Shown piece after piece: positions 22,549-31,497 of a stretch of 64,000 nt of DNA. The translations under genes and the position numbers were made by a program. Location: NCBI GenBank assembly GCA_965656545.1, contig CBFHKZ010000003.1:114580-178579 (forward strand), given 5' to 3'. The notes beneath the pieces are model-generated. The model did no database searches. It saw only the letters and a list, made by a program, of their open reading frames with translations, and was not told the DNA's origin. This DNA comes from Flavobacteriaceae bacterium (GTDB lineage Bacteria; Bacteroidota; Bacteroidia; Flavobacteriales; Flavobacteriaceae). The stretch's first letter is position 1; each line of letters starts with the position of its first letter.

Positions 22549-24345
22549 ATGGAAAATCGGCGAATAGACCCTTTACAAATCATAGGAATGGTGCTTATTT
22601 TTGGCATATTCACTTGGATGATGTACAATCAGCCTGTTCCAGATTTGGAAACGACAGCTACCGCTACCACCGAAGCAGTCGAACAACAAGATCCAGTACA
22701 GCCCATTGCTACAGACACAGCCGAACAAGCAGCTCCTACAGCAGCAGCGGTCAGCGTTGTTGCCGATACGCTTAACCTGCAAAACGAGGTGCTGTCTATT
22801 GGTATTTCTACCAAAGGAGGCGTGATGACACAGGTTGCTCTAAAAGATTTGGTCAATTACCAAGACGAGCCTTTGCACTTGATCGACAACGATAACAGCT
22901 CCTTTAATATCGCTTTTACAACGGTTTCTGGACAGTTGTTTCAGACAAAATTTATGATGTTTACCCCTTCGGTAAGCAACACAGCAGCCGGACAGGAATT
23001 GCGATTGCGCTCGCCACTTGATGCCGATGGCTATATTGAATTGGTTTACACCTTGCCTAAGGAAGGATACCGCTTTGGTTTTGAAGTGGTTGCCGAAGGC
23101 ATAGAAGGTGCTTTGGACCCTTCCATTCCCGCTGCCTTTTCATGGCGTATGGATGGCTTCCGTCATGCGAAAAGTGCCCAATACGAAAACCGTTATACGC
23201 AGCTTGCCTATAACCACAAATCGGACAAATACAGTACGCTTTCTGCCGCAGGAGACGACGACGAAGACCTAAAAAACGTGGGGTGGGTATCCTACCGCCA
23301 ACATTTTTTTAGCAGTATTCTTATTCCAGAAAATCCATTTGAAGTGGCTGCTGTGACCTCATCAACCATAACAGACGAGGAAGAAGAAGAGGAATCGGAA
23401 TTCCTTAAGGCGTTTACGACCGAAACCACATTGCCTTACAGCCGCAACCGTTTTCAAGCCAATTTTGATTGGTATATGGGCCCAACCGACTACGCGGTAT
23501 TAAAGACCTATGACGAATCTCTCTATGAAAGTATTTCTTTTGGTTGGGGGATTATTGGCTGGATAAACCGTTCGGTATTTTATCCGTTGTTTAGCATGCT
23601 TTCGGGGGTTGTTCCGCAGGGGATTGCCATTATTTTATTGACCATTATCGTGCGTTTGGTGCTTTCGCCAGTGCTCTACAAGTCTTATGTGTCTCAAGCC
23701 AAAATGCGGGTATTGCGACCAGAGATAACGGCCTTAAATGAAAAGTATAAAAACGATGCCACTAAGCGTCAGCAGGAAACCATGAAGCTATACAGCAAAG
23801 CCGGGGCAAGCCCCATGGCAGGTTGTATACCTGCGTTGATTCAAATGCCGGTTTTCTTTGCCTTGTTCTATTTCTTTCCCATCGCATACGAAATGCGTGG
23901 TAAGTCCTTTTTATGGGCAAAAGATTTATCGTCCTACGACATGATTGCCGAGCTTCCGTTTAGCATTCCGTTCTATGGCGATCACGTTAGTTTGTTTCCA
24001 CTCTTGGCGTCTGTTGCGATATTCTTTTATACCCAGATGACGGCAGGGCAGCAAATGCAACCTTCACAGCCGGGCATGCCCAACATGAAGTATATCATGT
24101 ATTTGATGCCTGTGATGATGTTGTTTTTCTTTAACAATTATGCCAGTGGATTTAGTTTGTACTATTTTGTTTCCAACGTCTTGATGATTGGGATCATGTT
24201 GGTGATTAAAAACGTCATCATTGATCAGGACAAAATCCATGCGCAGATTGAGGAAAACAAAAAGAAGCCCAAGAAGCAAAACCGCTTTCAGCGTAAGATG
24301 TCTGAACTGATGGAAGAAGCAGAGCGTCAAAAAAAGCTTAAATAA
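22549..24345 (+). CDS. yidC: membrane protein insertase YidC (long Bacteroidota form)
   Basis: 598 aa. One N-terminal TM segment, a large periplasmic domain, then the 60-kDa IMP core (GWGIIGWINR..., PALIQMPVFFALF). Confidence 0.92.
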   Translation: MENRRIDPLQIIGMVLIFGIFTWMMYNQPVPDLETTATATTEAVEQQDPVQPIATDTAEQAAPTAAAVSVVADTLNLQNEVLSIGISTKGGVMTQVALKDLVNYQDEPLHLIDNDNSSFNIAFTTVSGQLFQTKFMMFTPSVSNTAAGQELRLRSPLDADGYIELVYTLPKEGYRFGFEVVAEGIEGALDPSIPAAFSWRMDGFRHAKSAQYENRYTQLAYNHKSDKYSTLSAAGDDDEDLKNVGWVSYRQHFFSSILIPENPFEVAAVTSSTITDEEEEEESEFLKAFTTETTLPYSRNRFQANFDWYMGPTDYAVLKTYDESLYESISFGWGIIGWINRSVFYPLFSMLSGVVPQGIAIILLTIIVRLVLSPVLYKSYVSQAKMRVLRPEITALNEKYKNDATKRQQETMKLYSKAGASPMAGCIPALIQMPVFFALFYFFPIAYEMRGKSFLWAKDLSSYDMIAELPFSIPFYGDHVSLFPLLASVAIFFYTQMTAGQQMQPSQPGMPNMKYIMYLMPVMMLFFFNNYASGFSLYYFVSNVLMIGIMLVIKNVIIDQDKIHAQIEENKKKPKKQNRFQRKMSELMEEAERQKKLK

Positions 24346-24389
24346 GCCGTTCTAGGGGGCATAGCCACAACTAACTCACATATCCTGCT

Positions 24390-24397
24390 TACCTTTG
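24390..24397 (+). promoter_or_regulatory. -7 box TACCTTTG, 4 nt before the mnmA ATG
   Basis: Exact TAnnTTTG match. The 17-mer CTTACCTTTGTACCATG is identical to the one in front of ruvX (47595-47611). Confidence 0.4.
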
Positions 24398-24401
24398 TAC
24401 C

Positions 24402-25634
24402 ATGCAAAACAAACGTGTCATTGTTGGACTTTCTGGTGGTGTAGACTCCAGTGTTGCTGCTTATTTACTGCAGCAGCAAGGCTATGAGGTCATTGGTTTG
24501 TTTATGAAAAACTGGCACGATGACTCGGTAACCATTTCGGACGATTGCCCTTGGCTGGAAGACAGCAACGATGCCATGTTGGTGGCTGAAAAACTCGGCA
24601 TTCCCTTTCAAACCGTTGATTTAAGCAAGCAGTATAAGGAGCGTATAGTGGACTATATGTTTGCCGAATACCAACGTGGGCGCACGCCAAACCCAGATGT
24701 GCTTTGCAACCGTGAAATCAAATTTGATGTGTTTTTGGATATCGCCCTGTCATTGGGTGCGGACTATGTGGCTACGGGGCACTATTGCCAAAAGGATAGC
24801 CTTGCCGTGGACGCTGCGCCTGCCGTGGACGCTGCGCCTGGCGTGGACGCTGAGCCTGCCGTGGACGCTGAGCCTGTCGAAGCGACCCACCGCCTGCTTG
24901 CAGGCGCAGACCCCAATAAGGATCAGTCGTATTTTTTATGCCAACTCAACCAAGCGCAACTTGCCAAAACGCTATTTCCCATTGGCGGACTGCAAAAAAG
25001 CGAAGTGCGTAGCATTGCTGCCGAACAAGGACTGGTAACGGCTGAAAAGCGCGATTCCCAAGGTTTGTGCTTTGTGGGCAAGGTAAGCCTGCCCGACTTT
25101 TTACAGCAAAAACTAGCCACCAAAAAAGGTGCTATTATGCAAGTTGCAGACACGCACCCCATGTATGCCAAAACCCCAGACAATACGCCACAGGGCTTGG
25201 CGGAAAAGTTTGTGTATGCTCCCGAAGACGGCAAGGTTGTAGGTACGCATAACGGCGCACATTTTTTTACGGTGGGCCAACGCAAGGGCTTGGCGGTTGG
25301 GGGTACCAAAGAACCGCTGTTTGTACTGGCAACGGACGTGCAAAAAAACAGCATTTACGTAGGGGAGGGCAAAGACCACCCGGGCTTATATCGCCGTGCC
25401 TTGTGGATAGACCAAGCAGATGTACACTGGATACGCCCCGACTTAGAAACCGACCAACCCCTAAAGGTACAGGCACGCATACGCTACCGCCAGCCTTTGG
25501 CCACCGCTACACTGCATCCAAAAACAACAGGCATGTACCTCGTTTTTGATGCGCCCCAATCGGCGATTGCCGCCGGGCAGTTTGCCGCTTGGTACCTAGA
25601 CAATGAGCTGATAGGTTCTGGAGTTATTGGGTAA
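24402..25634 (+). CDS. mnmA: tRNA 2-thiouridine(34) synthase MnmA, carrying an in-frame repeat insertion
   Basis: 410 aa. PP-loop [22 protein letters not shown] and DQSYFL motifs. An extra AVDAAP-type repeat block sits between ATGHY and DQSYFL. Confidence 0.93.
24804..24875 (+). repeat. 18-bp x4 in-frame tandem repeat inside mnmA
   Basis: GCCGTGGACGCTGCGCCT x2, then GGCGTGGACGCTGAGCCT, then GCCGTGGACGCTGAGCCT. It encodes [24 protein letters not shown]. Confidence 0.95.
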
Positions 25635-25728
25635 ACATCCTTTCTAGCGAACCCCTTTGGCGTGCCATTTTAAAAGGTAAGTCACGCAGGTGTTAGCGAG
25701 GTTACGGTTTAATCTGCGCTTAGGCATG

Positions 25729-26226
25729 TTACAAGTAGTTTTCTATTAGTTCAGAAATGGTTTGTTCAGTCAGTTCAAATCCTTTTAGTTGTGGCCAACC
25801 TTCCCAAACAACAATTCCTTTTGGATTTATTATCACACAATGCGGGATTCCCTTTACCTCATAAATCTTTTCCAATCTTTCTTTGGTATCAATTGCACTA
25901 TAATATTCAATCTTTGGGTTTGTCATTCTTTTTACTTTCCCCATTTTTTCATCACTGATGCCAATAACAACTAAGTTGTCTTTGAATTTGTGGTGAAATT
26001 CGTTTAGTTCAGGGATCGATTTTTTACAAGTTCCACACCAAGTTGCCCAAAATTCAATTAGAATGAATTTTCCTTTAGTTTCAGGTTTTTCAGTCAGCCA
26101 CTCTTCAACTACAATTTCAGGAGCTTTTTTGTTTATAAATGATTTTGCCCATAACTTTTTTTCTTGAGCAAAAAGGCTAGAAACGGACAGTATAACAGTC
26201 AACGTTAGTAAAAGTATTTTTTTCAT
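25729..26226 (-). CDS. TlpA-like thioredoxin-fold thiol:disulfide oxidoreductase (exported)
   Basis: 165 aa. Signal peptide ending SLFAQ. CxxC motif WATWCGTCKK. GIPHCVIINPKG. The gene is AT-rich. Confidence 0.85.
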   Translation of the reverse strand: MKKILLLTLTVILSVSSLFAQEKKLWAKSFINKKAPEIVVEEWLTEKPETKGKFILIEFWATWCGTCKKSIPELNEFHHKFKDNLVVIGISDEKMGKVKRMTNPKIEYYSAIDTKERLEKIYEVKGIPHCVIINPKGIVVWEGWPQLKGFELTEQTISELIENYL

Positions 26227-26233
26227 ATTCTTC

Positions 26234-26365
26234 GTTTTAAGAACAAATCACAAATACCCAAGGAAATCCTAAAGAAAGGAGTTGTTGCAGGCCTAAAAAG
26301 AAGAACAGACTTGGGAGTCCCGCCGAGGCGAGGCGTATTGTTCACCACTAAAATAGTAAAAAAAT
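26234..26365. repeat. leader repeat copy 1 (directly upstream of the TlpA-like gene)
   Basis: 82-nt block 26234-26315 matches 28713-28794 at 80/82. A second block, TTGTTCACCACTAAA(A)TAGTAAAAAAA, is also shared. Copy 1 carries an extra 22 nt (AGTCCCGCCGAGGCGAGGCGTA). Confidence 0.9.
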
Positions 26366-26793
26366 TACACTGACCTTGATGTTAACATCTTATATGGTGA
26401 TACTACAGGTAATATCATTTCTTTAAAGTTTGTGTTTTGTAGTTGCTGAAAAATTAGACCTCTTGCTGTAGAAAAACTTATACCTAATAAAGTTGCTATA
26501 AATTGGTGTGAAAATACTGGCACATTACTTTCGTTTAGCTTGTACTGCTCGCTTAAATCTTTAATCACAAAATAAAAATCTATGTTAAATTTAACCCCTA
26601 TTTCTTCTTGAGATAAAAGATTAATGAATAATTCTATTTTAATTCTTTCATCTTTTAAATTGTGTTTAGTGTTTTGCGCTACACTAAATTCAAGATTTAA
26701 ATTATCATTTATTATATCATCACATATATAAGTATCAACAACTTCTATATTGAATAATTTAATTTTTTCTGGAATGATAAGATTTTCAGCCAT
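26365..26793 (-). CDS. hypothetical 142-aa protein, candidate SecB-like chaperone of a TAC-type module
   Basis: Its ATG shares one nt with the upstream stop (TAATG). Its size and pattern resemble SecB: IKLFNIEVVDTYI compares with FQIQRIYTKDISF, and the C-terminal FIATLLGISFSTARGLIFQQLQNTNFKEMILPVVSPYKML compares with E. coli SecB [36 protein letters not shown]. Eye alignment only. Confidence 0.35.
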   Translation of the reverse strand: MAENLIIPEKIKLFNIEVVDTYICDDIINDNLNLEFSVAQNTKHNLKDERIKIELFINLLSQEEIGVKFNIDFYFVIKDLSEQYKLNESNVPVFSHQFIATLLGISFSTARGLIFQQLQNTNFKEMILPVVSPYKMLTSRSV

Positions 26794-27164
26794 TATACTG
26801 CTTCTTGTGTATAGTAACTTTGTTCATAATCATCTATAGCAGATACTACGTCTTGTGAACCACCTTCTACGATACCTAAATACACATATTGAGGTTCTGG
26901 ATTCATTAGGTTGACCCCTAATGCATTTTCCATTTTTATAATACTTTTTAATGTTAGATTATGTAAACCTGAAAGCCATTTTGTGACTTCAGAAGGCTTT
27001 TTGCCTAACATTTCAGCAAACTTATTTTTCTTAATACCTCTTTTCTTTAAAATTACGCATACCTTTTGGGTAATCTCTAAATTACGTTCTATAAATTTAT
27101 CGATTTCAGGATTTTGATTTTCTTCTAACCAATTATCAAGTATGTTTTCTTTAGGAAATTCCAT
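26793..27164 (-). CDS. HTH-XRE (HigA-like) antitoxin candidate with a C-terminal extension
   Basis: HTH_3-type motif KFAEMLGKKPSEVTKWLSGLHNLTLKSIIKMENALGV, then a tail of about 35 aa (PEPQYVYLGIVEGG...DDYEQSYYTQEAV). The ATG at 27164 was preferred over the track's GTG at 27197. Confidence 0.65.
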   Translation of the reverse strand: MEFPKENILDNWLEENQNPEIDKFIERNLEITQKVCVILKKRGIKKNKFAEMLGKKPSEVTKWLSGLHNLTLKSIIKMENALGVNLMNPEPQYVYLGIVEGGSQDVVSAIDDYEQSYYTQEAV

Positions 27165-27171
27165 TTTTTTT

Positions 27172-27696
27172 TTAATAATAAAGTATAAAATCTTCACTAC
27201 AACTAATCAAAGTACAATCTTCGTTCCAAATAATATCTTTTTCACGAAAAGCATTATCAATTGCTTTTGTTAGTGTATTTGCTAAATTAAAATGTCTTTG
27301 AACATTTGGACATTCTTGTGCTTTTTGTGTTGTTTTAATATCGCCACTAAAAAGAAAAACAACATTTGGATTTGCTTTCAAACAATATAATCTAAGATTA
27401 TTTACTTTTTTCTTACCATACTCTACATAGTACGGTTTTTTGTCTTTGCCAATTGGTGGTAATGCTGAAGTATCTGCATTTTTTGCTTCATTTCTGAAAA
27501 AACGATTTTGTGCGCCATATTTTTCACCTATTAATTTCAACCATTTTTGAATATGATATAACTTCTTTTTATTCTCAATAGTATGTTTTTCAACAAACTT
27601 TTGATATAATGTTTTTTCACTATCATCCAAACAAACAGAATAATACGCTACTGTTTTATATTTGAATAGTGGTTTTATACGCGCAAAGTTATTCAC
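27172..27696 (-). CDS. Gp49/HigB-like (RelE-fold) toxin candidate
   Basis: 174 aa with a GTG start. The core NLRLYCLKANPNVVFLFSGDIKTTQKAQECPNV resembles the Gp49/HigB motif (..YRIFYF...VLLHGFQKKSQKTPK..). It lies 7 nt upstream of the HTH gene. Recognition only. Confidence 0.45.
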   Translation of the reverse strand: MNNFARIKPLFKYKTVAYYSVCLDDSEKTLYQKFVEKHTIENKKKLYHIQKWLKLIGEKYGAQNRFFRNEAKNADTSALPPIGKDKKPYYVEYGKKKVNNLRLYCLKANPNVVFLFSGDIKTTQKAQECPNVQRHFNLANTLTKAIDNAFREKDIIWNEDCTLISCSEDFILYY

Positions 27697-27711
27697 TTTT
27701 AAGTTAATTTA

Positions 27712-27719
27712 CAAAATTA
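27712..27719 (-). promoter_or_regulatory. -7 box TAATTTTG for the three-gene cassette
   Basis: Reverse complement reads TAATTTTG, 15 nt upstream of the GTG at 27696. Confidence 0.4.
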
Positions 27720-27739
27720 TTTCACTTTTAAGTGAAATA
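27718..27739. promoter_or_regulatory. palindromic operator candidate (TATTTCACTT-tt-AAGTGAAATA)
   Basis: Perfect 10-bp inverted arms with a 2-nt spacer, abutting the -7 box. A half-site copy TTCACTTTTAAGT recurs at 27692-27704, over the start codon. Confidence 0.5.
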
Positions 27740-28042
27740 TAATTATCATTTCTGCTATTTTAGAAAGTCTAAAAAAGTTCATATATTATTATATTTAGAA
27801 AACCATTTCTTATAAGTTGATTTATCTTTAAAATAAAAAGAATACAATTAATTATTCAACTTTAATCGCAAATGAAATTGGCTATATAATAGGCAATTGA
27901 TTTTATTTTCTTTCAAATATCAAATCAGCTCCATCAACATAAGATTGCCCCAACGTCATTTTGCTATTTTGTTCTTTTTATGTGTGCCAACTATTAAATA
28001 TATACATTCCCTTTATTCATATTTTATCTATCATAAGCCTGT

Positions 28043-28705
28043 TTAATAAAACCTCACGGCACTAAATTTAATTTTTAGTGGTACAGCAATGCTATAATCT
28101 GGATTTAAGTAAGAAGAGGTAGATTTTTTTTTAAATAATAGCGTGTCATCGTAAGACCCTTTAATGGTATTGCCAAAACAATAAACTTTATCCGGCCATT
28201 CGCCGCAAGATTCACTTGAGTTAGCTTTTATTTCACTTCCCAGGTCTGTAAGTGTGACCGTGATTTCACCTATTTTACCAGAGCTTTGTTCTTTAAAACT
28301 GCCTACTTCATAATCTATGTCATGTTGCGATCTAATAAAATCAACCATCAAATAATTAAAGGAAATCTGTGAAGTATTTGCTCCTATAGAAGCATTAGAA
28401 ATATATAATTCAGTAAAAATATTATCTCCTGAGACATAGTTTTTAGCGCTCTTGTCAGATATTCCAAGGCTGATGTATCCTGAGGCTAATGAATTGCAAT
28501 CATTTGCCCAGTCTGCACCTCCACCTCCCTCAGTTTCATGTGGCACTACAGTTGATGTGTGTCCTTCAATTTTATGTTTCTTTCCCGCAAATTCTATTTC
28601 AAAAAAATAGGAGACATTTCCATTGACACTTTGAGTGGAATCTCCATCATCTTTATTGCAAGAAACAAGTAATAATAGTGTTAATACAAGTAAGCTTTTT
28701 CTCAT
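28043..28705 (-). CDS. hypothetical lipoprotein, probably surface-exposed
   Basis: 220 aa. Lipobox LLVSC followed by NKDDGD, which matches the Bacteroidota lipoprotein export signal K-(D/E)2. I recognise no family. The gene is AT-rich. Confidence 0.6.
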   Translation of the reverse strand: MRKSLLVLTLLLLVSCNKDDGDSTQSVNGNVSYFFEIEFAGKKHKIEGHTSTVVPHETEGGGGADWANDCNSLASGYISLGISDKSAKNYVSGDNIFTELYISNASIGANTSQISFNYLMVDFIRSQHDIDYEVGSFKEQSSGKIGEITVTLTDLGSEIKANSSESCGEWPDKVYCFGNTIKGSYDDTLLFKKKSTSSYLNPDYSIAVPLKIKFSAVRFY

Positions 28706-28712
28706 GATTTTA

Positions 28713-28824
28713 GTTTTAAGAACAAATCACAAATACCCAAGAAAATCCTAAAGAAAGGTGTTGTTGCAGGCCTAAAAAGAAGAACAGACTTGGGGTTTGT
28801 TCACCACTAAAGTAGTAAAAAAAA
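28713..28824. repeat. leader repeat copy 2 (directly upstream of the lipoprotein gene)
   Basis: See copy 1. It is in the same orientation and starts about 8 nt upstream of the start codon. Confidence 0.9.
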
Positions 28825-28875
28825 GTTTACGCTGAGTTTATCGAAGCGTACTGATCCTGCCTGTCGTCAGGCAGG
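28817..28875 (-). terminator. lysA 3' hairpins (REP-like) with a T-tract
   Basis: The hairpin CCTGCCTG-tcgt-CAGGCAGG lies at 28856-28875. The hairpin TACGCT..AGCGTA lies at 28828-28850 and encloses the CTGAGTTTATCGAAG motif also seen at 767-836. On the minus strand it is followed by T8 (28817-28824). Confidence 0.55.
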
Positions 28876-28918
28876 CTTGTCGAAATCACCTTTAAAAAGT
28901 TCTCGTATTCTATTTCAG

Positions 28919-30139
28919 CTACACCTCCACTGCATCAAAAGCCATCACCACTTGGTTTTTTACCAAATCGTCAAAGCTTTCCGCTTGGCGGATTAGATGT
29001 GCTTCGCCATTGTGCCACAGTACTTCGGCTGGGCGGTAGCGGGAGTTGTAGTTGCTTGCCATGGTAAAGCAATAGGCACCAGCATTATGGAAACACAATA
29101 CGTCCCCATCGCTGATTTCCGCAATCTTGCGGTTGTTGGCAAAGGTGTCCGTCTCGCAGATATAGCCCACAACAGAGTAAAAACGCTCCCTGCCTTCAGG
29201 GTTGGAAATGTTTTCTATGCGGTGCTGCGCACCATAGAGCATGGGGCGTATCAAGTGGTTAAAACCACTGTTTACCTGTGCAAATACCGTCGAGGTGGTT
29301 TGCTTAACCGAATTCACAGACGTGAGGAAATAACCCGCTTGGGACACCAAAAACTTGCCCGGCTCAAAGGCCAATACCAGTTCTTTGCCGTAGTCTGCGC
29401 AAAAGGCATTAAAACGAACGCTTAATTTCTCGCCCAATTCCTCTATGTTGGTTTCGTTATCGCCTGGCTTGTAGGGTACTTTAAACCCACTGCCAAAGTC
29501 CAAAAATTCCAAGTCTTTAAATTGCCGTGCCGTGTCAAAAAGGATTTCGGCAGCATGTAGGAATACTTCAATATCCAAAATATCACTTCCGGTATGCATA
29601 TGTACCCCGTTGATATTCATGCCTGTGTTTTCAACAATACGCAATACGTGCGGCATCTGGTGAATACTGATGCCAAACTTGGAGTCGATATGCCCCACAG
29701 AAATATTGGCATTACCGCCCGCCATGATGTGCGGGTTGATGCGGATGCAAACCGGCACCGTTGGATGAGCAGTACCAAACTGTTCCAATACAGAGAGGTT
29801 GTCTATGTTAATTTGTACGCCAAGGGTCGCTACCTCTTCTATTTCAGATAGGGAAACACCATTGGGGGTAAAGATGATTTCTTTGGGTGGTACACCGGCT
29901 TCCAAACCCAGTTGTACTTCCTGTATGGATACGGTATCCAGTCCTGCGCCCAAGTGATGCATCCATTTGAGTACGCTGAGGTTTGAAAGCGCTTTCACGG
30001 CATAGTTGATACGCAGTTGAGGTACTGCGCTAAAAGCGTTGGTCAGTCTGTTGTATTGCGCTTCCATGATATGGGCGTCATATACGTATATGGGACTGCC
30101 ATGTGTTTCGCTTATCTGTACTAAATCTTGGTGCTGCAT
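28919..30139 (-). CDS. lysA: diaminopimelate decarboxylase
   Basis: MQHQDLVQISETHGSPIYVYD start. PLP-site YAVKALSN. HMHTGS, EPGK and GAYCF motifs. The 41-codon N-terminal extension in the track is hydrophobic junk and I rejected it. Confidence 0.92.
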   Translation of the reverse strand: MQHQDLVQISETHGSPIYVYDAHIMEAQYNRLTNAFSAVPQLRINYAVKALSNLSVLKWMHHLGAGLDTVSIQEVQLGLEAGVPPKEIIFTPNGVSLSEIEEVATLGVQINIDNLSVLEQFGTAHPTVPVCIRINPHIMAGGNANISVGHIDSKFGISIHQMPHVLRIVENTGMNINGVHMHTGSDILDIEVFLHAAEILFDTARQFKDLEFLDFGSGFKVPYKPGDNETNIEELGEKLSVRFNAFCADYGKELVLAFEPGKFLVSQAGYFLTSVNSVKQTTSTVFAQVNSGFNHLIRPMLYGAQHRIENISNPEGRERFYSVVGYICETDTFANNRKIAEISDGDVLCFHNAGAYCFTMASNYNSRYRPAEVLWHNGEAHLIRQAESFDDLVKNQVVMAFDAVEV

Positions 30140-30154
30140 CGCATAAGTTTTGCG

Positions 30155-30162
30155 CAAATGTA
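30155..30162 (-). promoter_or_regulatory. -7 box TACATTTG upstream of lysA
   Basis: Reverse complement reads TACATTTG, 15 nt upstream of the ATG at 30139. Confidence 0.35.
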
Positions 30163-30278
30163 AGTTTTTAGGAAATGCTGTAAGAGGTAAAAAGCGAAAT
30201 ATATTAAAAATCAAACAAGATGTTGTAAATATAACAAACAAGTTTTGTGTTAGGGGAGTCATAAGCTCGTTTGATTGC

Positions 30279-30286
30279 CTATTTTT
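30279..30286 (+). promoter_or_regulatory. -7 box TATTTTTG upstream of sucC
   Basis: Exact TAnnTTTG match, 20 nt before the ATG at 30307. Confidence 0.35.
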
Positions 30287-30306
30287 GCAACGAATAATTT
30301 ACACCC

Positions 30307-31497
30307 ATGAACGTACACGAATACCAAGGAAAAGAGATTTTAGCCAAGTTTGGCGTAGGCGTACAGCGCGGAATAGTTGCCACAACCCCAGAAGAGGCAA
30401 CGGCCGCAGCAAAGCAATTAACCGAAGAAACGGGAACCGGCTGGCATGTGATTAAAGCACAGGTACACGCTGGGGGTCGCGGAAAAGGAGGGGGTGTTAA
30501 GCTCGCCAAGTCTTTGGAAGAAGTCGCGCGTCTCTCGGAAGAAATTATCGGTATGCAGTTGGTTACCCCACAAACCACAGCCGAAGGAAAGAAAGTACAT
30601 CAAGTGCTGGTTGCTGAAGACGTTTATTATCCTGGCGATTCGGAGCCCGAAGAAATTTATATCTCGGTATTGCTGAACCGCACCACAGGTCGTAACATGA
30701 TTATGTATTCTACGGAAGGTGGAATGGATATTGAAAAAGTAGCCGAAGAAACACCAGAACTTATTTTCACAGAAGAAATTAATCCAACCGTAGGCTTGTT
30801 GCCTTTTCAGGCACGTAAGATTGCCTTTAACCTTGGGCTTTCGGGTCTTGCGTTCAAAGGCATGGTGAAGTTTGTATCGGCTTTATACAAGGCTTATGTG
30901 GGTGCAGATGCTGCCTTATTTGAAATCAATCCGGTATTAAAAACATCAGACGATAAGATTATCGCTGTTGATGCCAAGGTAACCCTAGACGACAATGCCT
31001 TGTTCCGTCATCCTGATTTTGCCGCCATGCGCGATATTCGTGAAGAAAACCCAACCGATGTGGCAGCACGTGAAGTGGGGCTTAACTACGTTCAGTTGGA
31101 CGGCAATGTAGGTTGTATGGTAAACGGCGCTGGATTGGCCATGGCGACCATGGATTTAATCAAGCAAGCAGGTGGTGATCCTGCCAACTTCCTAGATGTT
31201 GGCGGTACTGCCGATGCTGCTCGTGTAGAAGCTGCTTTCCGCATCATACTTCAAGACCCCAAGGTAAAGGCTATTTTGGTCAATATTTTTGGCGGTATTG
31301 TGCGTTGTGACCGTGTGGCGCAAGGCATTGTGGATGCTTATAAAAACATGGGTGATGCGATTCAAGTACCGATCATTGTGCGTTTGCAAGGCACCAATGC
31401 CGACATCGCAAAACAGCTGATAGATGATTCTGGGTTAGAAGTACAGAGTGCCATTTTATTCCAAGAAGCTGCCGATAAGGTACAGGAAGTACTCTGA
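30307..31497 (+). CDS. sucC: succinate-CoA ligase (ADP-forming) beta subunit
   Basis: 396 aa. MNVHEYQGKEILAKFGV start. ATP-grasp fold. GCMVNGAGLAMATMD and NIFGGIVRCD motifs. Confidence 0.95.
   Translation: MNVHEYQGKEILAKFGVGVQRGIVATTPEEATAAAKQLTEETGTGWHVIKAQVHAGGRGKGGGVKLAKSLEEVARLSEEIIGMQLVTPQTTAEGKKVHQVLVAEDVYYPGDSEPEEIYISVLLNRTTGRNMIMYSTEGGMDIEKVAEETPELIFTEEINPTVGLLPFQARKIAFNLGLSGLAFKGMVKFVSALYKAYVGADAALFEINPVLKTSDDKIIAVDAKVTLDDNALFRHPDFAAMRDIREENPTDVAAREVGLNYVQLDGNVGCMVNGAGLAMATMDLIKQAGGDPANFLDVGGTADAARVEAAFRIILQDPKVKAILVNIFGGIVRCDRVAQGIVDAYKNMGDAIQVPIIVRLQGTNADIAKQLIDDSGLEVQSAILFQEAADKVQEVL

What the first reader, a model, noticed from the sequence alone, without database searches (positions are those of the whole stretch)
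25729..28824. AT-rich accessory islet between mnmA and lysA, bounded by long direct repeats and lacking any recombinase
Spot counts of single 60-nt lines give about 20-30% G+C inside (for example 26581-26640 and 27301-27360). The flanking lines give about 43-55% (25441-25500 in mnmA and 29041-29100 in lysA). The islet holds only non-core genes: a TlpA-like thioredoxin, the three-gene TAC-like cassette, a 346-bp non-coding AT-rich spacer (27697-28042) and an orphan lipoprotein. Two same-orientation copies of a 110-130 bp sequence lie 2479 bp apart (26234 versus 28713). This fits horizontal acquisition or cassette duplication. However, I see no integrase, transposase, tRNA or inverted terminal repeats, so the mechanism is unclear.
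Basis: seen in the sequence. Interest (0 to 1): 0.6.

Follow-up and report, generated by a model that had tools for sequence, protein, structure and literature searches.

The report
Accessory islet marked by cassette-head repeats
A real 3.3-kb low-GC insertion between two housekeeping genes carries a borrowed candidate anti-phage module, and its "direct repeats" are two copies of an undescribed ~100-nt structured element that, across this marine flavobacterial genus, sits in front of accessory genes at sites where gene content varies.

Summary
Window 25729-28824 has 29.9% G+C against 41.1% for the genome. It holds two same-strand repeat copies 2479 bp apart and no recombinase or tRNA.

Eight congeners have mnmA and lysA only 2-20 bp apart, with no repeat copy, so the islet is an insertion at a variable site.

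The islet is a mosaic:
- Element B plus an orphan lipoprotein.
- A 1.66-kb block (26239-27900) that is absent from population variants. It holds a three-gene toxin/HTH/SecB-like module (PADLOC candidate PDC-M64) that is 90-92% nucleotide-identical to Tenacibaculum, Polaribacter and Aquimarina contigs, plus element A.
- A TlpA-like gene.

The repeats are not islet-specific. They belong to a family of about 95-115 nt:
- 15 copies in this genome.
- Present in 22 of 24 congeners, in one of 80 other genera of the family, and in no other family sampled.
- Not in Rfam.
- All 15 copies are co-oriented with the next gene, which is typically low-GC.
- Copies recur after the same anchor genes with different cargo, sometimes in arrays.
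- The fold is conserved and strand-specific.
- One congener carries a hybrid copy exactly where a two-gene cassette is missing.

My best reading is a cassette-head RNA or expression element whose copies also serve as recombination substrates. The function is inferred, not shown.

The parts
25635..25728 (.). mnmA-side junction of the islet (94 nt, higher G+C). Not repeated elsewhere in the genome. About 52 nt of it are shared (88%) with the differently loaded islet of congener G024.
25729..26226 (-). TlpA/ResA-like exported thiol-disulfide oxidoreductase, 165 aa, G+C 0.33. The best named relatives are TlpA-family proteins of other Flavobacteriaceae genera, at up to 84% aa identity to Tamlana.
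26227..26373 (-). Repeat copy A. The element core is 26254-26367 by covariance model. It also includes a 38-nt tail (TATTTGTGATTTGTTCTTAAAAC...) reaching to just before the trx ATG, and a 5' flank TCAGTGTAA that supplies the last codons and the stop of the SecB-like gene. It contains the optional GC-rich hairpin.
26239..27900 (-). 1662-nt block absent from population variants L167, L168 and L169. It comprises the imported PDC-M64/TAC-like module plus element copy A, with TAAAA microhomology at both junctions.
26365..26793 (-). PDC-M64C, 142 aa, predicted SecB-like chaperone fold.
26793..27197 (-). PDC-M64B, an HTH_3 (XRE-type) DNA-binding protein and the presumed antitoxin. Homologues start at MEFPKEN, so the real start is probably 27164 (123 aa).
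27172..27696 (-). PDC-M64A, 174 aa, the presumed toxin or effector. No Pfam or PDB sequence match. 87-94% aa identical to proteins of Tenacibaculum, Polaribacter, Aquimarina and Salegentibacter.
27697..27900 (-). Upstream region of the imported module. It includes the palindrome TTCACTTAAAAGTGAA and a TAATTTTG -7 box, both conserved in the other genera. Homology to an Aquimarina contig runs to 27878.
27901..28042 (-). Ancestral 142-nt intergenic region between the lipoprotein gene and trx. In variants L168 and L169 it joins directly to the trx leader.
28043..28705 (-). Orphan lipoprotein, 220 aa, G+C 0.34. Only one homologue (73% identity) was found among 5.8 billion protein clusters.
28706..28838 (-). 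Repeat copy B. The element core is 28733-28826 by covariance model. It has the same tail as copy A, fused to the lipoprotein ATG, and a 5' flank TCAGCGTAAAC. It lacks the optional hairpin.
28839..28918 (-). lysA-side junction, with a REP-like hairpin GCCTGCCTG-ACGA-CAGGCAGG. It is partly shared with G024.

Best explanation
SHOWN
- The mnmA/lysA 3'-3' junction is a genus-wide variable site. It is empty (2-20 bp) in many congeners and carries different cargo in others.
- The window's islet is a mosaic of three units, read along the minus strand from lysA:
  (i) element copy B fused at the ATG to an orphan lipoprotein gene;
  (ii) a 1.66-kb block holding a toxin/HTH-antitoxin/SecB-like-chaperone module (PADLOC candidate PDC-M64), imported from another roughly 30% G+C flavobacterial genus, followed by element copy A;
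  (iii) a TlpA-like gene.
- The low G+C therefore reflects foreign or flexible-pool origin.
- The two 'long direct repeats' are members of a dispersed, clade-restricted family of structured elements of about 95-115 nt. The layout is a T-run, a box TTAG-N3-TGAACAA, an optional hairpin, a core CCCAARTCTGTTCT, a variable hairpin, and then TTTAGGATTTTTTTGGG.
- Copies always point the same way as the next gene. They sit in front of low-GC accessory genes, and recur after the same anchor genes in different species with different cargo.

INFERRED
- The element is transcribed with the downstream cassette and acts as a cassette-head RNA or expression module. It could be a non-canonical promoter plus structured 5' leader, or an insulator or anti-termination signal for read-through from the upstream gene. 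This would let AT-rich foreign genes that lack a canonical TAnnTTTG promoter be expressed.
- Because the same sequence heads many cassettes, copies also serve as substrates for recombination. Host RecA or a host site-specific enzyme would add, delete or swap cassettes.
- Other joins, such as the 1.66-kb block, are illegitimate microhomology joins.
- No recombinase inside the islet is needed.
For: Islet and empty site
- G+C statistics.
- Empty sites of 2-20 bp in G002, G007, G020, G014, G022, G016, G012 and G041.
- G024 shares both junction sequences but carries a different cargo, one element plus a 244-aa lipoprotein.
- Population variants L167, L168 and L169 lack 26239-27900 and differ in other cargo.

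Imported module
- PADLOC PDC-M64 A, B and C at E = 3e-89, 2e-54 and 7e-55.
- 90-92% nucleotide identity over 26375-27878 to Tenacibaculum, Polaribacter and Aquimarina contigs of 29-30% G+C, with unrelated flanks.
- SecB-like fold for gene C, TM 0.62-0.68 to 1fx3 and 1qyn, also matching the M. tuberculosis TAC chaperone 5mtw.

Element family
- 15 covariance-model hits in this genome.
- Present in 22 of 24 congeners and 0 of 16 other families.
- Present in 1 of 80 other genera of the family.
- No Rfam match.
- None on viral contigs after covariance-model filtering; about 24 marine metagenome contigs pass.
- 15 of 15 copies are co-oriented with the downstream gene (p = 6e-5). Downstream genes average 35.5% G+C against 41.5% genome-wide (p = 8e-6). 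Upstream genes are ordinary.

Structure
- 92% of cells are paired, 6 of 11 pairs show compensatory change, 0 of 500 shuffles reach the observed values, and slid controls give 43-70%.
- Variable-length hairpins are inserted at two fixed positions.
- 84 G.U cells against 9 A.C cells, so the fold is strand-specific.

Hot spots
- The same anchor genes carry the element with different cargo in many genomes.
- Between lpdA and argH, G007 has the element alone, while this genome has a 12-kb array with 4 copies.

Recombination
- G002 has one X/Y hybrid copy exactly where the VIT1 + 165-aa cassette, bracketed by two copies in G018, G019 and G021, is missing.

Expression
- The element plus tail is fused at the ATG to three unrelated genes.
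- There is no canonical TAnnTTTG box between elements A or B and their genes.
- At one hot spot the element is 91-93% conserved against 75-80% for the flanking coding DNA.
Against: - There is no transcript evidence.
- No canonical Bacteroidota promoter lies in the element. Its conserved TAnnTTAG deviates from TAnnTTTG.
- In 3-4 of about 45 examined copies the element is followed by a convergent gene and has nothing to drive (G007, G017, G023). A pure leader would not be kept there.
- Downstream genes share no function, so a classical riboswitch is unlikely.
- Part of the covariation may be subfamily signal from related copies.
- Identity between non-sister copies is patchy, with identical runs of only about 10-20 nt. 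That is poor for RecA-dependent exchange.
- At this locus the 1.66-kb block did not enter at a pre-existing element, and the empty site has no copy. Element-to-element recombination therefore cannot be the only route.
- At two hot spots the element is no better conserved than its flanks.
Confidence: 0.55

Rival explanations
1. The element is a dedicated site-specific recombination site, a functional analogue of integron attC or VCR repeats. Cassettes of one element plus genes would be excised as circles and inserted at other copies or at secondary sites. The enzyme would be encoded elsewhere, for example the host XerC/XerD pair or an unrecognised recombinase. Any effect on expression would be secondary.
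For: - Copies form same-strand arrays 0.9-2.9 kb apart that bracket cassettes.
- The same hot spots hold different cargo, element-only sites and fully empty sites.
- G002 has a hybrid copy whose crossover maps to the conserved core GAACAA..CCCAARTCTGTTCT.
- The element has imperfect dyad symmetry with a variable centre and genus-homogeneous sequence, as in chromosomal integron attC sites.
- Cargo is typical of integron cassettes: TA or defence modules, RM genes and small exported proteins.
- In the 1.66-kb block the element lies 3' of the imported genes.
Against: - There is no integron integrase. The only small tyrosine recombinases are XerC/XerD-like, and TIGR02249 scores 105-132 bits against a cut-off of 265. 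None of the five recombinases lies next to an element.
- The element has no RYYYAAC/GTTRRRY ends.
- Single-cassette sites carry one copy, 5' of the gene, and the empty sites have no target copy.
- The block with copy A was joined at TAAAA microhomology, not at an element.
- The abundant G.U pairing fits RNA better than DNA.
Confidence: 0.2
2. The element is a selfish non-autonomous mobile repeat, like a MITE or Correia element. It inserts into intergenic DNA on its own and survives only where it is harmless or useful. Its link with accessory genes would simply reflect relaxed selection in flexible regions.
For: - The copies are dispersed, multi-copy and clade-restricted.
- Some copies stand alone between two conserved genes: G007, G017, G023, and the copy in front of VIT1.
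- Copy A appears at a place where three population variants have none.
Against: - There are no terminal inverted repeats, and no target-site duplication flanks the element itself.
- No transposase family could be linked to it.
- 15 of 15 copies are co-oriented with the downstream gene, which is unexpected for random insertion without strong selection.
- Copy A arrived as part of a larger 1.66-kb block and carries 9 nt of the flank of the lysA-proximal copy. That points to copying by recombination, not transposition.
Confidence: 0.1
3. The element is a family of stand-alone small RNA genes (sibling sRNAs), or terminator/insulator modules of the upstream genes. Flexible DNA would accumulate next to them, as it does next to tRNA genes.
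For: - The fold is conserved and strand-specific, with a U-rich 3' part.
- Some copies have no downstream gene to regulate.
- Many copies start 0-3 nt after the stop codon of a co-oriented upstream gene.
Against: - The U-run lies inside the stem, before the 3' strand of P1, not after it, and no intrinsic-terminator pattern was called.
- Two to three of the 15 copies in this genome, plus five more in congeners, lie in divergent intergenic regions with no upstream gene to terminate.
- Full-length copies, not partial 3' ends, flank the cassettes, unlike islands that target tRNA or sRNA genes.
- No integrase accompanies the cargo.
Confidence: 0.15

Closest known systems
Integron attC sites / Vibrio cholerae repeats (VCR) and CALIN cassette arrays
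   Same: - Repeats of about 100 nt with imperfect dyad symmetry, conserved boxes and a variable centre.
- Sequence is homogeneous within a clade.
- Copies share one orientation and separate small, mostly low-GC accessory ORFs, including toxin-antitoxin and defence modules.
- Cassette content differs between close relatives.
   Different: - There is no IntI integrase in the genome and no attI.
- The RYYYAAC/GTTRRRY ends are absent.
- Copies are spread over at least 10 chromosomal sites instead of one array.
- In single-cassette sites the copy lies 5' of the gene.
- Integrons are very rare in Bacteroidetes (PMC9024848).
Correia/NEMIS, ERIC, BOX and RUP-type intergenic repeats
   Same: - Clade-specific, multi-copy intergenic elements of about 100-150 nt that fold as RNA and are co-transcribed with neighbouring genes.
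- They can carry promoters or processing sites (from my own knowledge of these families).
   Different: - No terminal inverted repeats, and no TA or other target duplication around the element.
- Orientation is strictly tied to the downstream gene.
- The link with variable cargo at fixed hot spots is tight.
ops/JUMPStart elements recognised by RfaH-type NusG paralogues
   Same: A short conserved, strand-specific element placed in front of horizontally acquired AT-rich operons. It allows their expression by read-through or anti-termination (from my own knowledge). The genome does encode a second NusG-family protein.
   Different: - There is no sequence similarity, and this element is far longer and more structured.
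- The NusG paralogue sits in a different low-GC island and is not linked to any copy.
- This comparison is analogy only.
Toxin-antitoxin-chaperone (TAC) systems: M. tuberculosis HigB1-HigA1-Rv1957, CmdTAC
   Same: - The three-gene order is small effector, HTH antitoxin, SecB-like chaperone.
- The predicted SecB fold of the third protein matches SecB and Rv1957.
- TAC systems are known anti-phage modules (PMC9519451, PMC11618068).
   Different: - The first protein has no detectable similarity to HigB, RelE, CmdT or any PDB chain, and its model is of low confidence.
- A chaperone-addiction segment in the antitoxin was not tested.
- Defence activity of PDC-M64 is only a computational candidate.
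Flexible genomic islands / defence hot spots between conserved core genes
   Same: Fixed chromosomal positions between core genes where close relatives carry different accessory, defence and surface-protein genes, often without mobility genes.
   Different: Here the hot spots are marked by a specific repeated structured element. Islets are very small, one to a few genes.

Membership tests
Integron cassette array (attC / CALIN) | Integron integrase (IntI) in or near the array or in the genome | tested here: not met
   There are five PF00589 hits in the genome and none is next to an element. The two ~296-298-aa proteins are XerD/XerC-like. TIGR02249 scores 131.6 and 104.5 bits against a cut-off of 265. 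The genome is 93% complete.
Integron cassette array (attC / CALIN) | attC ends R'' RYYYAAC and R' GTTRRRY enclosing the site | tested here: not met
   Judged by inspection of the 39-sequence alignment. The element starts with a T-run and ends with TTTGGG. The internal GAACA/TGTTC pair does not fit the consensus and does not enclose the element. IntegronFinder's own attC model was not available.
Integron cassette array (attC / CALIN) | Imperfect palindrome with a variable central part; same-orientation repeats separating cassettes | tested here: met
   Helices P1 and P2 with a variable apical hairpin. Same-strand arrays at C2:122.6-128.7k, C1:228-230k and C3:37-39k, and in the window.
MITE / Correia-like element | Terminal inverted repeats and target-site duplication | tested here: not met
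   No terminal inverted repeats in the family alignment. The only duplicated junction motif, TAAAA, flanks the 1.66-kb block, not the element.
Integrase- or tRNA-associated genomic island | Integrase gene, tRNA or other RNA gene as target, partial target repeat at the far end | tested here: not met
   No tRNA or tmRNA in the window. No recombinase domain in the islet proteins. The empty site carries no repeat copy.
Any Rfam RNA family | Covariance-model match | tested here: not met
   cmscan of 24000-31000 on both strands at E <= 1 gave 0 matches.
Cis-regulatory structured RNA (5' leader) | Conserved secondary structure with compensatory changes on the sense strand | tested here: met
   92% of cells are paired; 6 of 11 pairs show changes on both sides; 0 of 500 shuffles reach the observed value; slid controls give 43-70%. 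G.U 84 against A.C 9. Caveat: the copies are related and the alignment was fitted to the model.
Cis-regulatory structured RNA (5' leader) | Consistent position upstream of, and co-oriented with, a gene | tested here: met
   15 of 15 copies in this genome and 22 of 26 scorable copies in congeners. Four copies face a convergent gene.
Cis-regulatory structured RNA (5' leader) | Transcription of the element with the downstream gene | not testable with these tools
PADLOC candidate defence system PDC-M64 | All three component HMMs matched, in adjacent co-oriented genes | tested here: met
   A: E = 3.4e-89 over 174 of 174 positions. B: 1.8e-54. C: 6.7e-55. Whether it defends against phage has not been tested by anyone, as far as I could find (0 papers).
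Toxin-antitoxin-chaperone (TAC) system | SecB-like chaperone encoded third, after a toxin and an HTH antitoxin | tested here: met
   The model has pLDDT 75.7 and pTM 0.73. Foldseek top hits are SecB 1fx3 and 1qyn (TM 0.62-0.68) and the Rv1957 TAC chaperone 5mtw. HTH_3 is found in gene 2.
Toxin-antitoxin-chaperone (TAC) system | Recognisable toxin fold and a chaperone-addiction segment in the antitoxin | tested here: inconclusive
   The model of the 174-aa protein has pLDDT 53.7, too low for a fold search. It has no Pfam, NCBIfam or PDB sequence match. The ChAD segment was not examined.

The most novel reading that the evidence does not exclude
The element is the recombination site of an integron-like but integrase-less cassette system in a clade of streamlined marine Flavobacteriaceae. 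Cassettes of one element plus one to a few genes would be excised and inserted at a dozen dispersed chromosomal hot spots by a host-encoded enzyme such as XerC/XerD, or by an unrecognised one. The same element would supply expression signals for each newly arrived AT-rich cassette.
Probability: 0.2. Interest if true: 0.85.

Novelty: new variant of a known kind. Interest (0 to 1): 0.66.

Why it matters
Streamlined marine Flavobacteriaceae carry few classical mobile elements, yet their gene content varies between close relatives. How small accessory and defence modules enter, move and get expressed in such genomes is poorly understood.

This finding gives a concrete, testable handle. It is a specific structured element of about 100 nt that marks the heads of accessory cassettes at recurrent hot spots. 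At least one case carries the footprint of cassette loss or gain by recombination between two copies.

If the element proves to be an expression or anti-silencing signal, it would explain how foreign AT-rich genes are switched on without canonical promoters. If it proves to be a recombination site, it would be a cassette system without an integron integrase, in a phylum where integrons are almost absent.

The islet also documents recent inter-genus transfer (90-92% nucleotide identity) of a compact TAC-like candidate anti-phage module with no mobility gene attached.

Tried and rejected
- Rfam scan of the region at E <= 1: nothing.
- tRNA/tmRNA scan of the whole window: nothing.
- Sigma-70 promoter and intrinsic-terminator scan: counts were at the level of shuffled sequence, and no terminator was called at the elements. 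This scan does not model Bacteroidota promoters.
- Canonical TAnnTTTG boxes: none between elements A or B and their genes.
- Junction sequences of the islet and the AT-rich spacer as repeats: they are unique in the genome.
- Viral contigs: 8 exact pattern matches, none confirmed by the covariance model, so there is no sign of a phage origin.
- Integron hypothesis: no IntI was found.
- ECF-sigma or sigma-54 promoter readings of the box GAACA...GTCTG: rejected, because the spacing varies from about 10 to over 30 nt between copies.
- Invertible promoter flanked by inverted repeats: rejected, because apart from the 6-bp CCCAAG/CTTGGG the helix relies on G.U pairs and is not a DNA-level inverted repeat.
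- DGR template/variable repeat: rejected. There is no reverse transcriptase and the repeats are intergenic.
- ops-like anti-termination: a second NusG-family gene exists but is unlinked to any copy. Kept only as an analogy.
- Sequence search of PDB for the 174-aa and 142-aa proteins: nothing.
- The model of the 174-aa protein was too poor (pLDDT 53.7) to search by fold.
- Literature: no paper mentions PDC-M64. No description of this element was found.
- The direction of the 1.66-kb event (insertion, or deletion between TAAAA repeats) could not be settled. Insertion is favoured only by parsimony over three variants.

Full report
1. THE OBSERVATION

The window is C3:114580-178579 of a 1.80-Mb, 11-contig genome that is 93% complete.

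Composition. The genome has 41.1% G+C and the stretch 25729-28824 has 29.9%. That is z = -3.0 against all 3.1-kb windows, in the lowest 1.5%. In 300-nt windows G+C drops from 0.45-0.58 in mnmA and lysA to 0.22-0.35 inside. The islet is not unique: about 70 other low-GC patches exist in this genome.

Repeats. The direct repeat is real. Blocks of 99 nt (93% identical) and 27 nt (96% identical) lie on the same strand, 2479 and 2459 bp apart, because copy A has an extra hairpin of about 20 nt. Read on the minus strand, each copy runs into the start codon of the next gene: trx at 26226 and the lipoprotein at 28705.

Genes. No tRNA lies in the window. No islet protein has a recombinase or transposase domain.

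2. THE ISLET IS AN INSERTION AT A VARIABLE SITE

I located lysA in 27 of 29 genomes of the genus and fetched the DNA downstream of it in 20 of them.

- In eight (G002, G007, G020, G014, G022, G016, G012, G041), mnmA and lysA are convergent with only 2-20 bp between the stop codons. The closest relatives read ...TAA-TC-CTA....
- These empty sites contain no copy of the repeat.
- Two genomes have 152 or 212 bp there. G017 has a 173-aa exported ORF.
- G024, whose LysA is 99% identical, has one element copy plus a 244-aa lipoprotein.
- In eight genomes lysA has a different neighbour altogether. One of them, G018, has an element copy and a 28% G+C ORF right after lysA.
- None of the 20 regions has any of the five islet proteins.
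- The window and G024 share short sequences at both edges of the insertion but differ in cargo.

Exact-protein look-ups found three more population variants in public assemblies.

- L168: element, lipoprotein (73% identical), a 142-nt spacer, trx, mnmA.
- L169: the same, plus a 161-aa gene.
- L167: element with the same tail as copy B, a 256-aa AhpC/TSA protein, a 128-aa protein, spacer, trx, the 161-aa gene, mnmA.

In all three, the sequence ...GAAAGAAAATAAAA joins directly to AC(G/C)AAGAATATG of trx. The window therefore differs by a 1662-nt block, 26239-27900, with TAAAA at both joins.

3. WHAT THE BLOCK IS

The three small genes match all three components of the PADLOC candidate system PDC-M64 (E = 3e-89, 2e-54 and 7e-55).

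- Proteins 87-94% identical to the 174-aa protein occur in Tenacibaculum, Polaribacter, Aquimarina and Salegentibacter.
- At DNA level, 26375-27878 is 90-92% identical to three of these contigs, which have 29-30% G+C.
- Homology begins at or shortly upstream of a conserved palindromic operator and ends three codons before the stop of the third gene. The flanks are unrelated in every genome.
- The third protein is predicted (pLDDT 75.7) to have the SecB fold. Its best PDB matches are SecB and the M. tuberculosis TAC chaperone Rv1957. This supports the toxin-antitoxin-chaperone reading. TAC systems are known phage-defence modules (PMC9519451, PMC11618068).
- The first protein remains unassigned.

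The other two genes were also checked.

- The TlpA-like protein has its best named relatives in other Flavobacteriaceae genera, at up to 84% identity.
- The lipoprotein is nearly an orphan.

The rest of the block is element copy A. Its 5' flank, TCAGTGTAA, supplies the last codons and the stop of the SecB-like gene. That flank is the same one found next to the lysA-proximal copies: TCAGCGTAAAC at copy B and TCAGTGTAACC in G024. Copy A is therefore a copy of a lysA-proximal element, flank included.

4. THE REPEATS BELONG TO A FAMILY

Copy number and spread.
- BLAST, nhmmer and a covariance model (R1) find 15 copies in this genome.
- The model finds 1-11 copies in 22 of 24 congeners and none in 16 genomes of other families of the order.
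- Among 80 other genera of the same large family, only one has it, with 4 hits.
- About 24 marine metagenome contigs carry it. Eight pattern matches on viral contigs all fail the model.
- Rfam has nothing like it.

Layout. The element consists of a T-run, a box (A/G)YTA-N-TTAG-N3-TGAACAA, an optional GC-rich hairpin whose sequence differs between copies, the core CCCAARTCTGTTCT, a variable region that often forms its own hairpin, and then TTTAGGATTTTTTTGGG.

Fold.
- RNAalifold and single-sequence folds give P1 (CCCAAG/CTTGGG) and P2 (GTTCT/AGGAT).
- On 38 distinct sequences, 92% of cells are paired and 6 of 11 pairs have compensatory changes. No shuffle of 500 reaches these values, and slid controls give 43-70%.
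- A small hairpin in the box, and an alternative GAACA/TGTTC helix that would form a pseudoknot with P1, are also compatible.
- G.U cells outnumber A.C cells 84 to 9. The fold therefore exists on the sense strand only, as expected for RNA or for one DNA strand.
- Caveat: the copies are related and the alignment was fitted to the model.

5. CONTEXT OF THE COPIES

- All 15 copies in this genome point the same way as the next gene (p = 6e-5).
- Those downstream genes average 35.5% G+C, against 41.5% for all genes (p = 8e-6). The upstream genes are ordinary.
- Cargo includes HsdM, a type IIG restriction enzyme, KilA-N-like and Rha-like proteins, T9SS-type secreted proteins, lipoproteins, a rhodanese and a VIT1 transporter.
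- The same anchor genes carry the element in many species with different cargo: after a 409-aa gene (six genomes), a 442-aa gene, lpdA and a 403-aa gene.
- Between lpdA and argH, G007 has only the element, while this genome has a 12-kb array with four copies.
- After the 403-aa gene, G017 and G023 have the element alone, G022 has the element plus a gene, and this genome has nothing.
- At one hot spot the orthologous element is 91-93% identical while the flanking coding DNA is 75-80% identical. At two others the copies have evidently been replaced.

6. A RECOMBINATION FOOTPRINT

G018, G019 and G021 have this order: 442-aa gene, element X, VIT1, a 165-aa gene, element Y, a 150-aa gene.

G002 has only the 442-aa gene, one element and the 150-aa gene.
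- Its 5' flank and 5' part are X-like (89-93% identical).
- Its 3' part and 3' flank are Y-like (59-78%, against 28-46% to X).
- The switch falls in the conserved core.

This is what recombination between two direct copies leaves behind. Equally, it is what insertion of a one-element circle would produce.

7. HOW IT MOST LIKELY WORKS

Shown: the hot spot, the mosaic, the imported module, the family, its orientation rule and its fold.

Inferred: the element is transcribed with its cassette and provides expression signals. Four observations support this.
- The element plus tail is fused at the ATG to three unrelated genes.
- No canonical TAnnTTTG box lies between elements A or B and their genes.
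- Some copies lie in divergent intergenic regions where a promoter is needed.
- Others start 0-3 nt after the upstream stop codon, which suits read-through.

As a repeated sequence, the element also mediates cassette gain and loss. Other joins are by microhomology.

Arguments against:
- The box is non-canonical.
- A few copies have no gene to drive.
- The homology is too patchy for efficient RecA exchange.
- At this very locus, the empty site has no copy.

The main rival is a dedicated recombination site. It is favoured by the arrays, the hot spots and the hybrid copy. It is weakened by four observations: there is no integron integrase, the element lacks attC-type ends, the block with copy A was joined at microhomology, and the fold is rich in G.U pairs.

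8. COMPARISON AND NOVELTY

The closest known things are integron attC/VCR repeats, Correia/ERIC-type intergenic repeats and ops/JUMPStart signals. The element fails the defining tests of the first two and has only an analogy with the third.

Integrons are nearly absent from Bacteroidetes (PMC9024848). I found no description of this element and no paper on PDC-M64.

I rate it a new variant of a known kind: a clade-specific structured intergenic repeat, here tied unusually tightly to accessory cassettes.

9. VERDICT

The islet itself is an ordinary kind of thing, a small flexible islet carrying a defence candidate. The element family behind its 'direct repeats' is the interesting part and deserves experimental follow-up.

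Noticed in passing
window 24785-24892: An 18-bp in-frame tandem repeat inside mnmA (five copies by the repeat finder, the outer two degenerate), encoding AVDAAP-like units. MnmA is only 79-92% identical to congeners while LysA next door is 88-99% identical, and MnmA lengths differ (387-410 aa). The repeat tract is probably a variable region.
   Followed up: partly
window 28855-28885; also G000:C3:39317-39430: A GC-rich hairpin, GCCTGCCTG-ACGA-CAGGCAGG, lies just downstream of lysA. A near-identical hairpin (CCTGTCTGCCGACAGGCAGG) is inserted in the variable region of another element copy. This suggests a second, smaller REP-like palindrome family in this genome.
   Followed up: no
G000:C2:122522-134445 (outside the window): A 12-kb array of small, mostly exported low-GC genes with four element copies lies between lpdA and convergent argH. 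In congener G007 the same two genes are separated by a single element copy only.
   Followed up: partly
loci L036-L055 (lysA neighbourhoods in congeners): lysA has three different downstream neighbours within one genus: mnmA, carB with a 369-401-aa membrane-anchored ORF, or a 726-aa secreted protein. The 3' end of lysA is therefore a rearrangement breakpoint as well as an insertion site.
   Followed up: no
G000:C1:471594-471866 (outside the window): A second NusG-family gene (160-aa ORF) lies inside a low-GC island at C1:468.4-472.9k. It may be a specialised anti-termination factor.
   Followed up: no
window 27692-27743 and loci L056-L063: The palindrome TTCACTTAAAAGTGAA and the following TAATTTTG box upstream of the three-gene module are conserved almost base for base in six other genomes of several genera. 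The DNA upstream of it is unrelated in all but one. The module's mobile unit begins at or near its own operator.
   Followed up: partly
loci L064, L065 (Logan assembly of run ERR15116654): A public short-read assembly of what seems to be the same population breaks its contigs exactly inside element copies A and B. Many covariance-model hits in congener MAGs also lie at contig ends. The element therefore fragments metagenome assemblies at these hot spots.
   Followed up: no
element copies in window 26315-26337, G000:C2:125781-125894, C2:128627-128734, C1:521040-521151; L010, L011, L019, L027: An optional hairpin of 20-30 nt sits at one fixed position of the element in a subset of copies. Its sequences differ but remain self-complementary (GCCTCGCC..GGCGGG, GTCTCGCC..GGCAGAC, CATCTCG..CGAGAC). 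It looks like an expansion stem of a structured RNA.
   Followed up: partly
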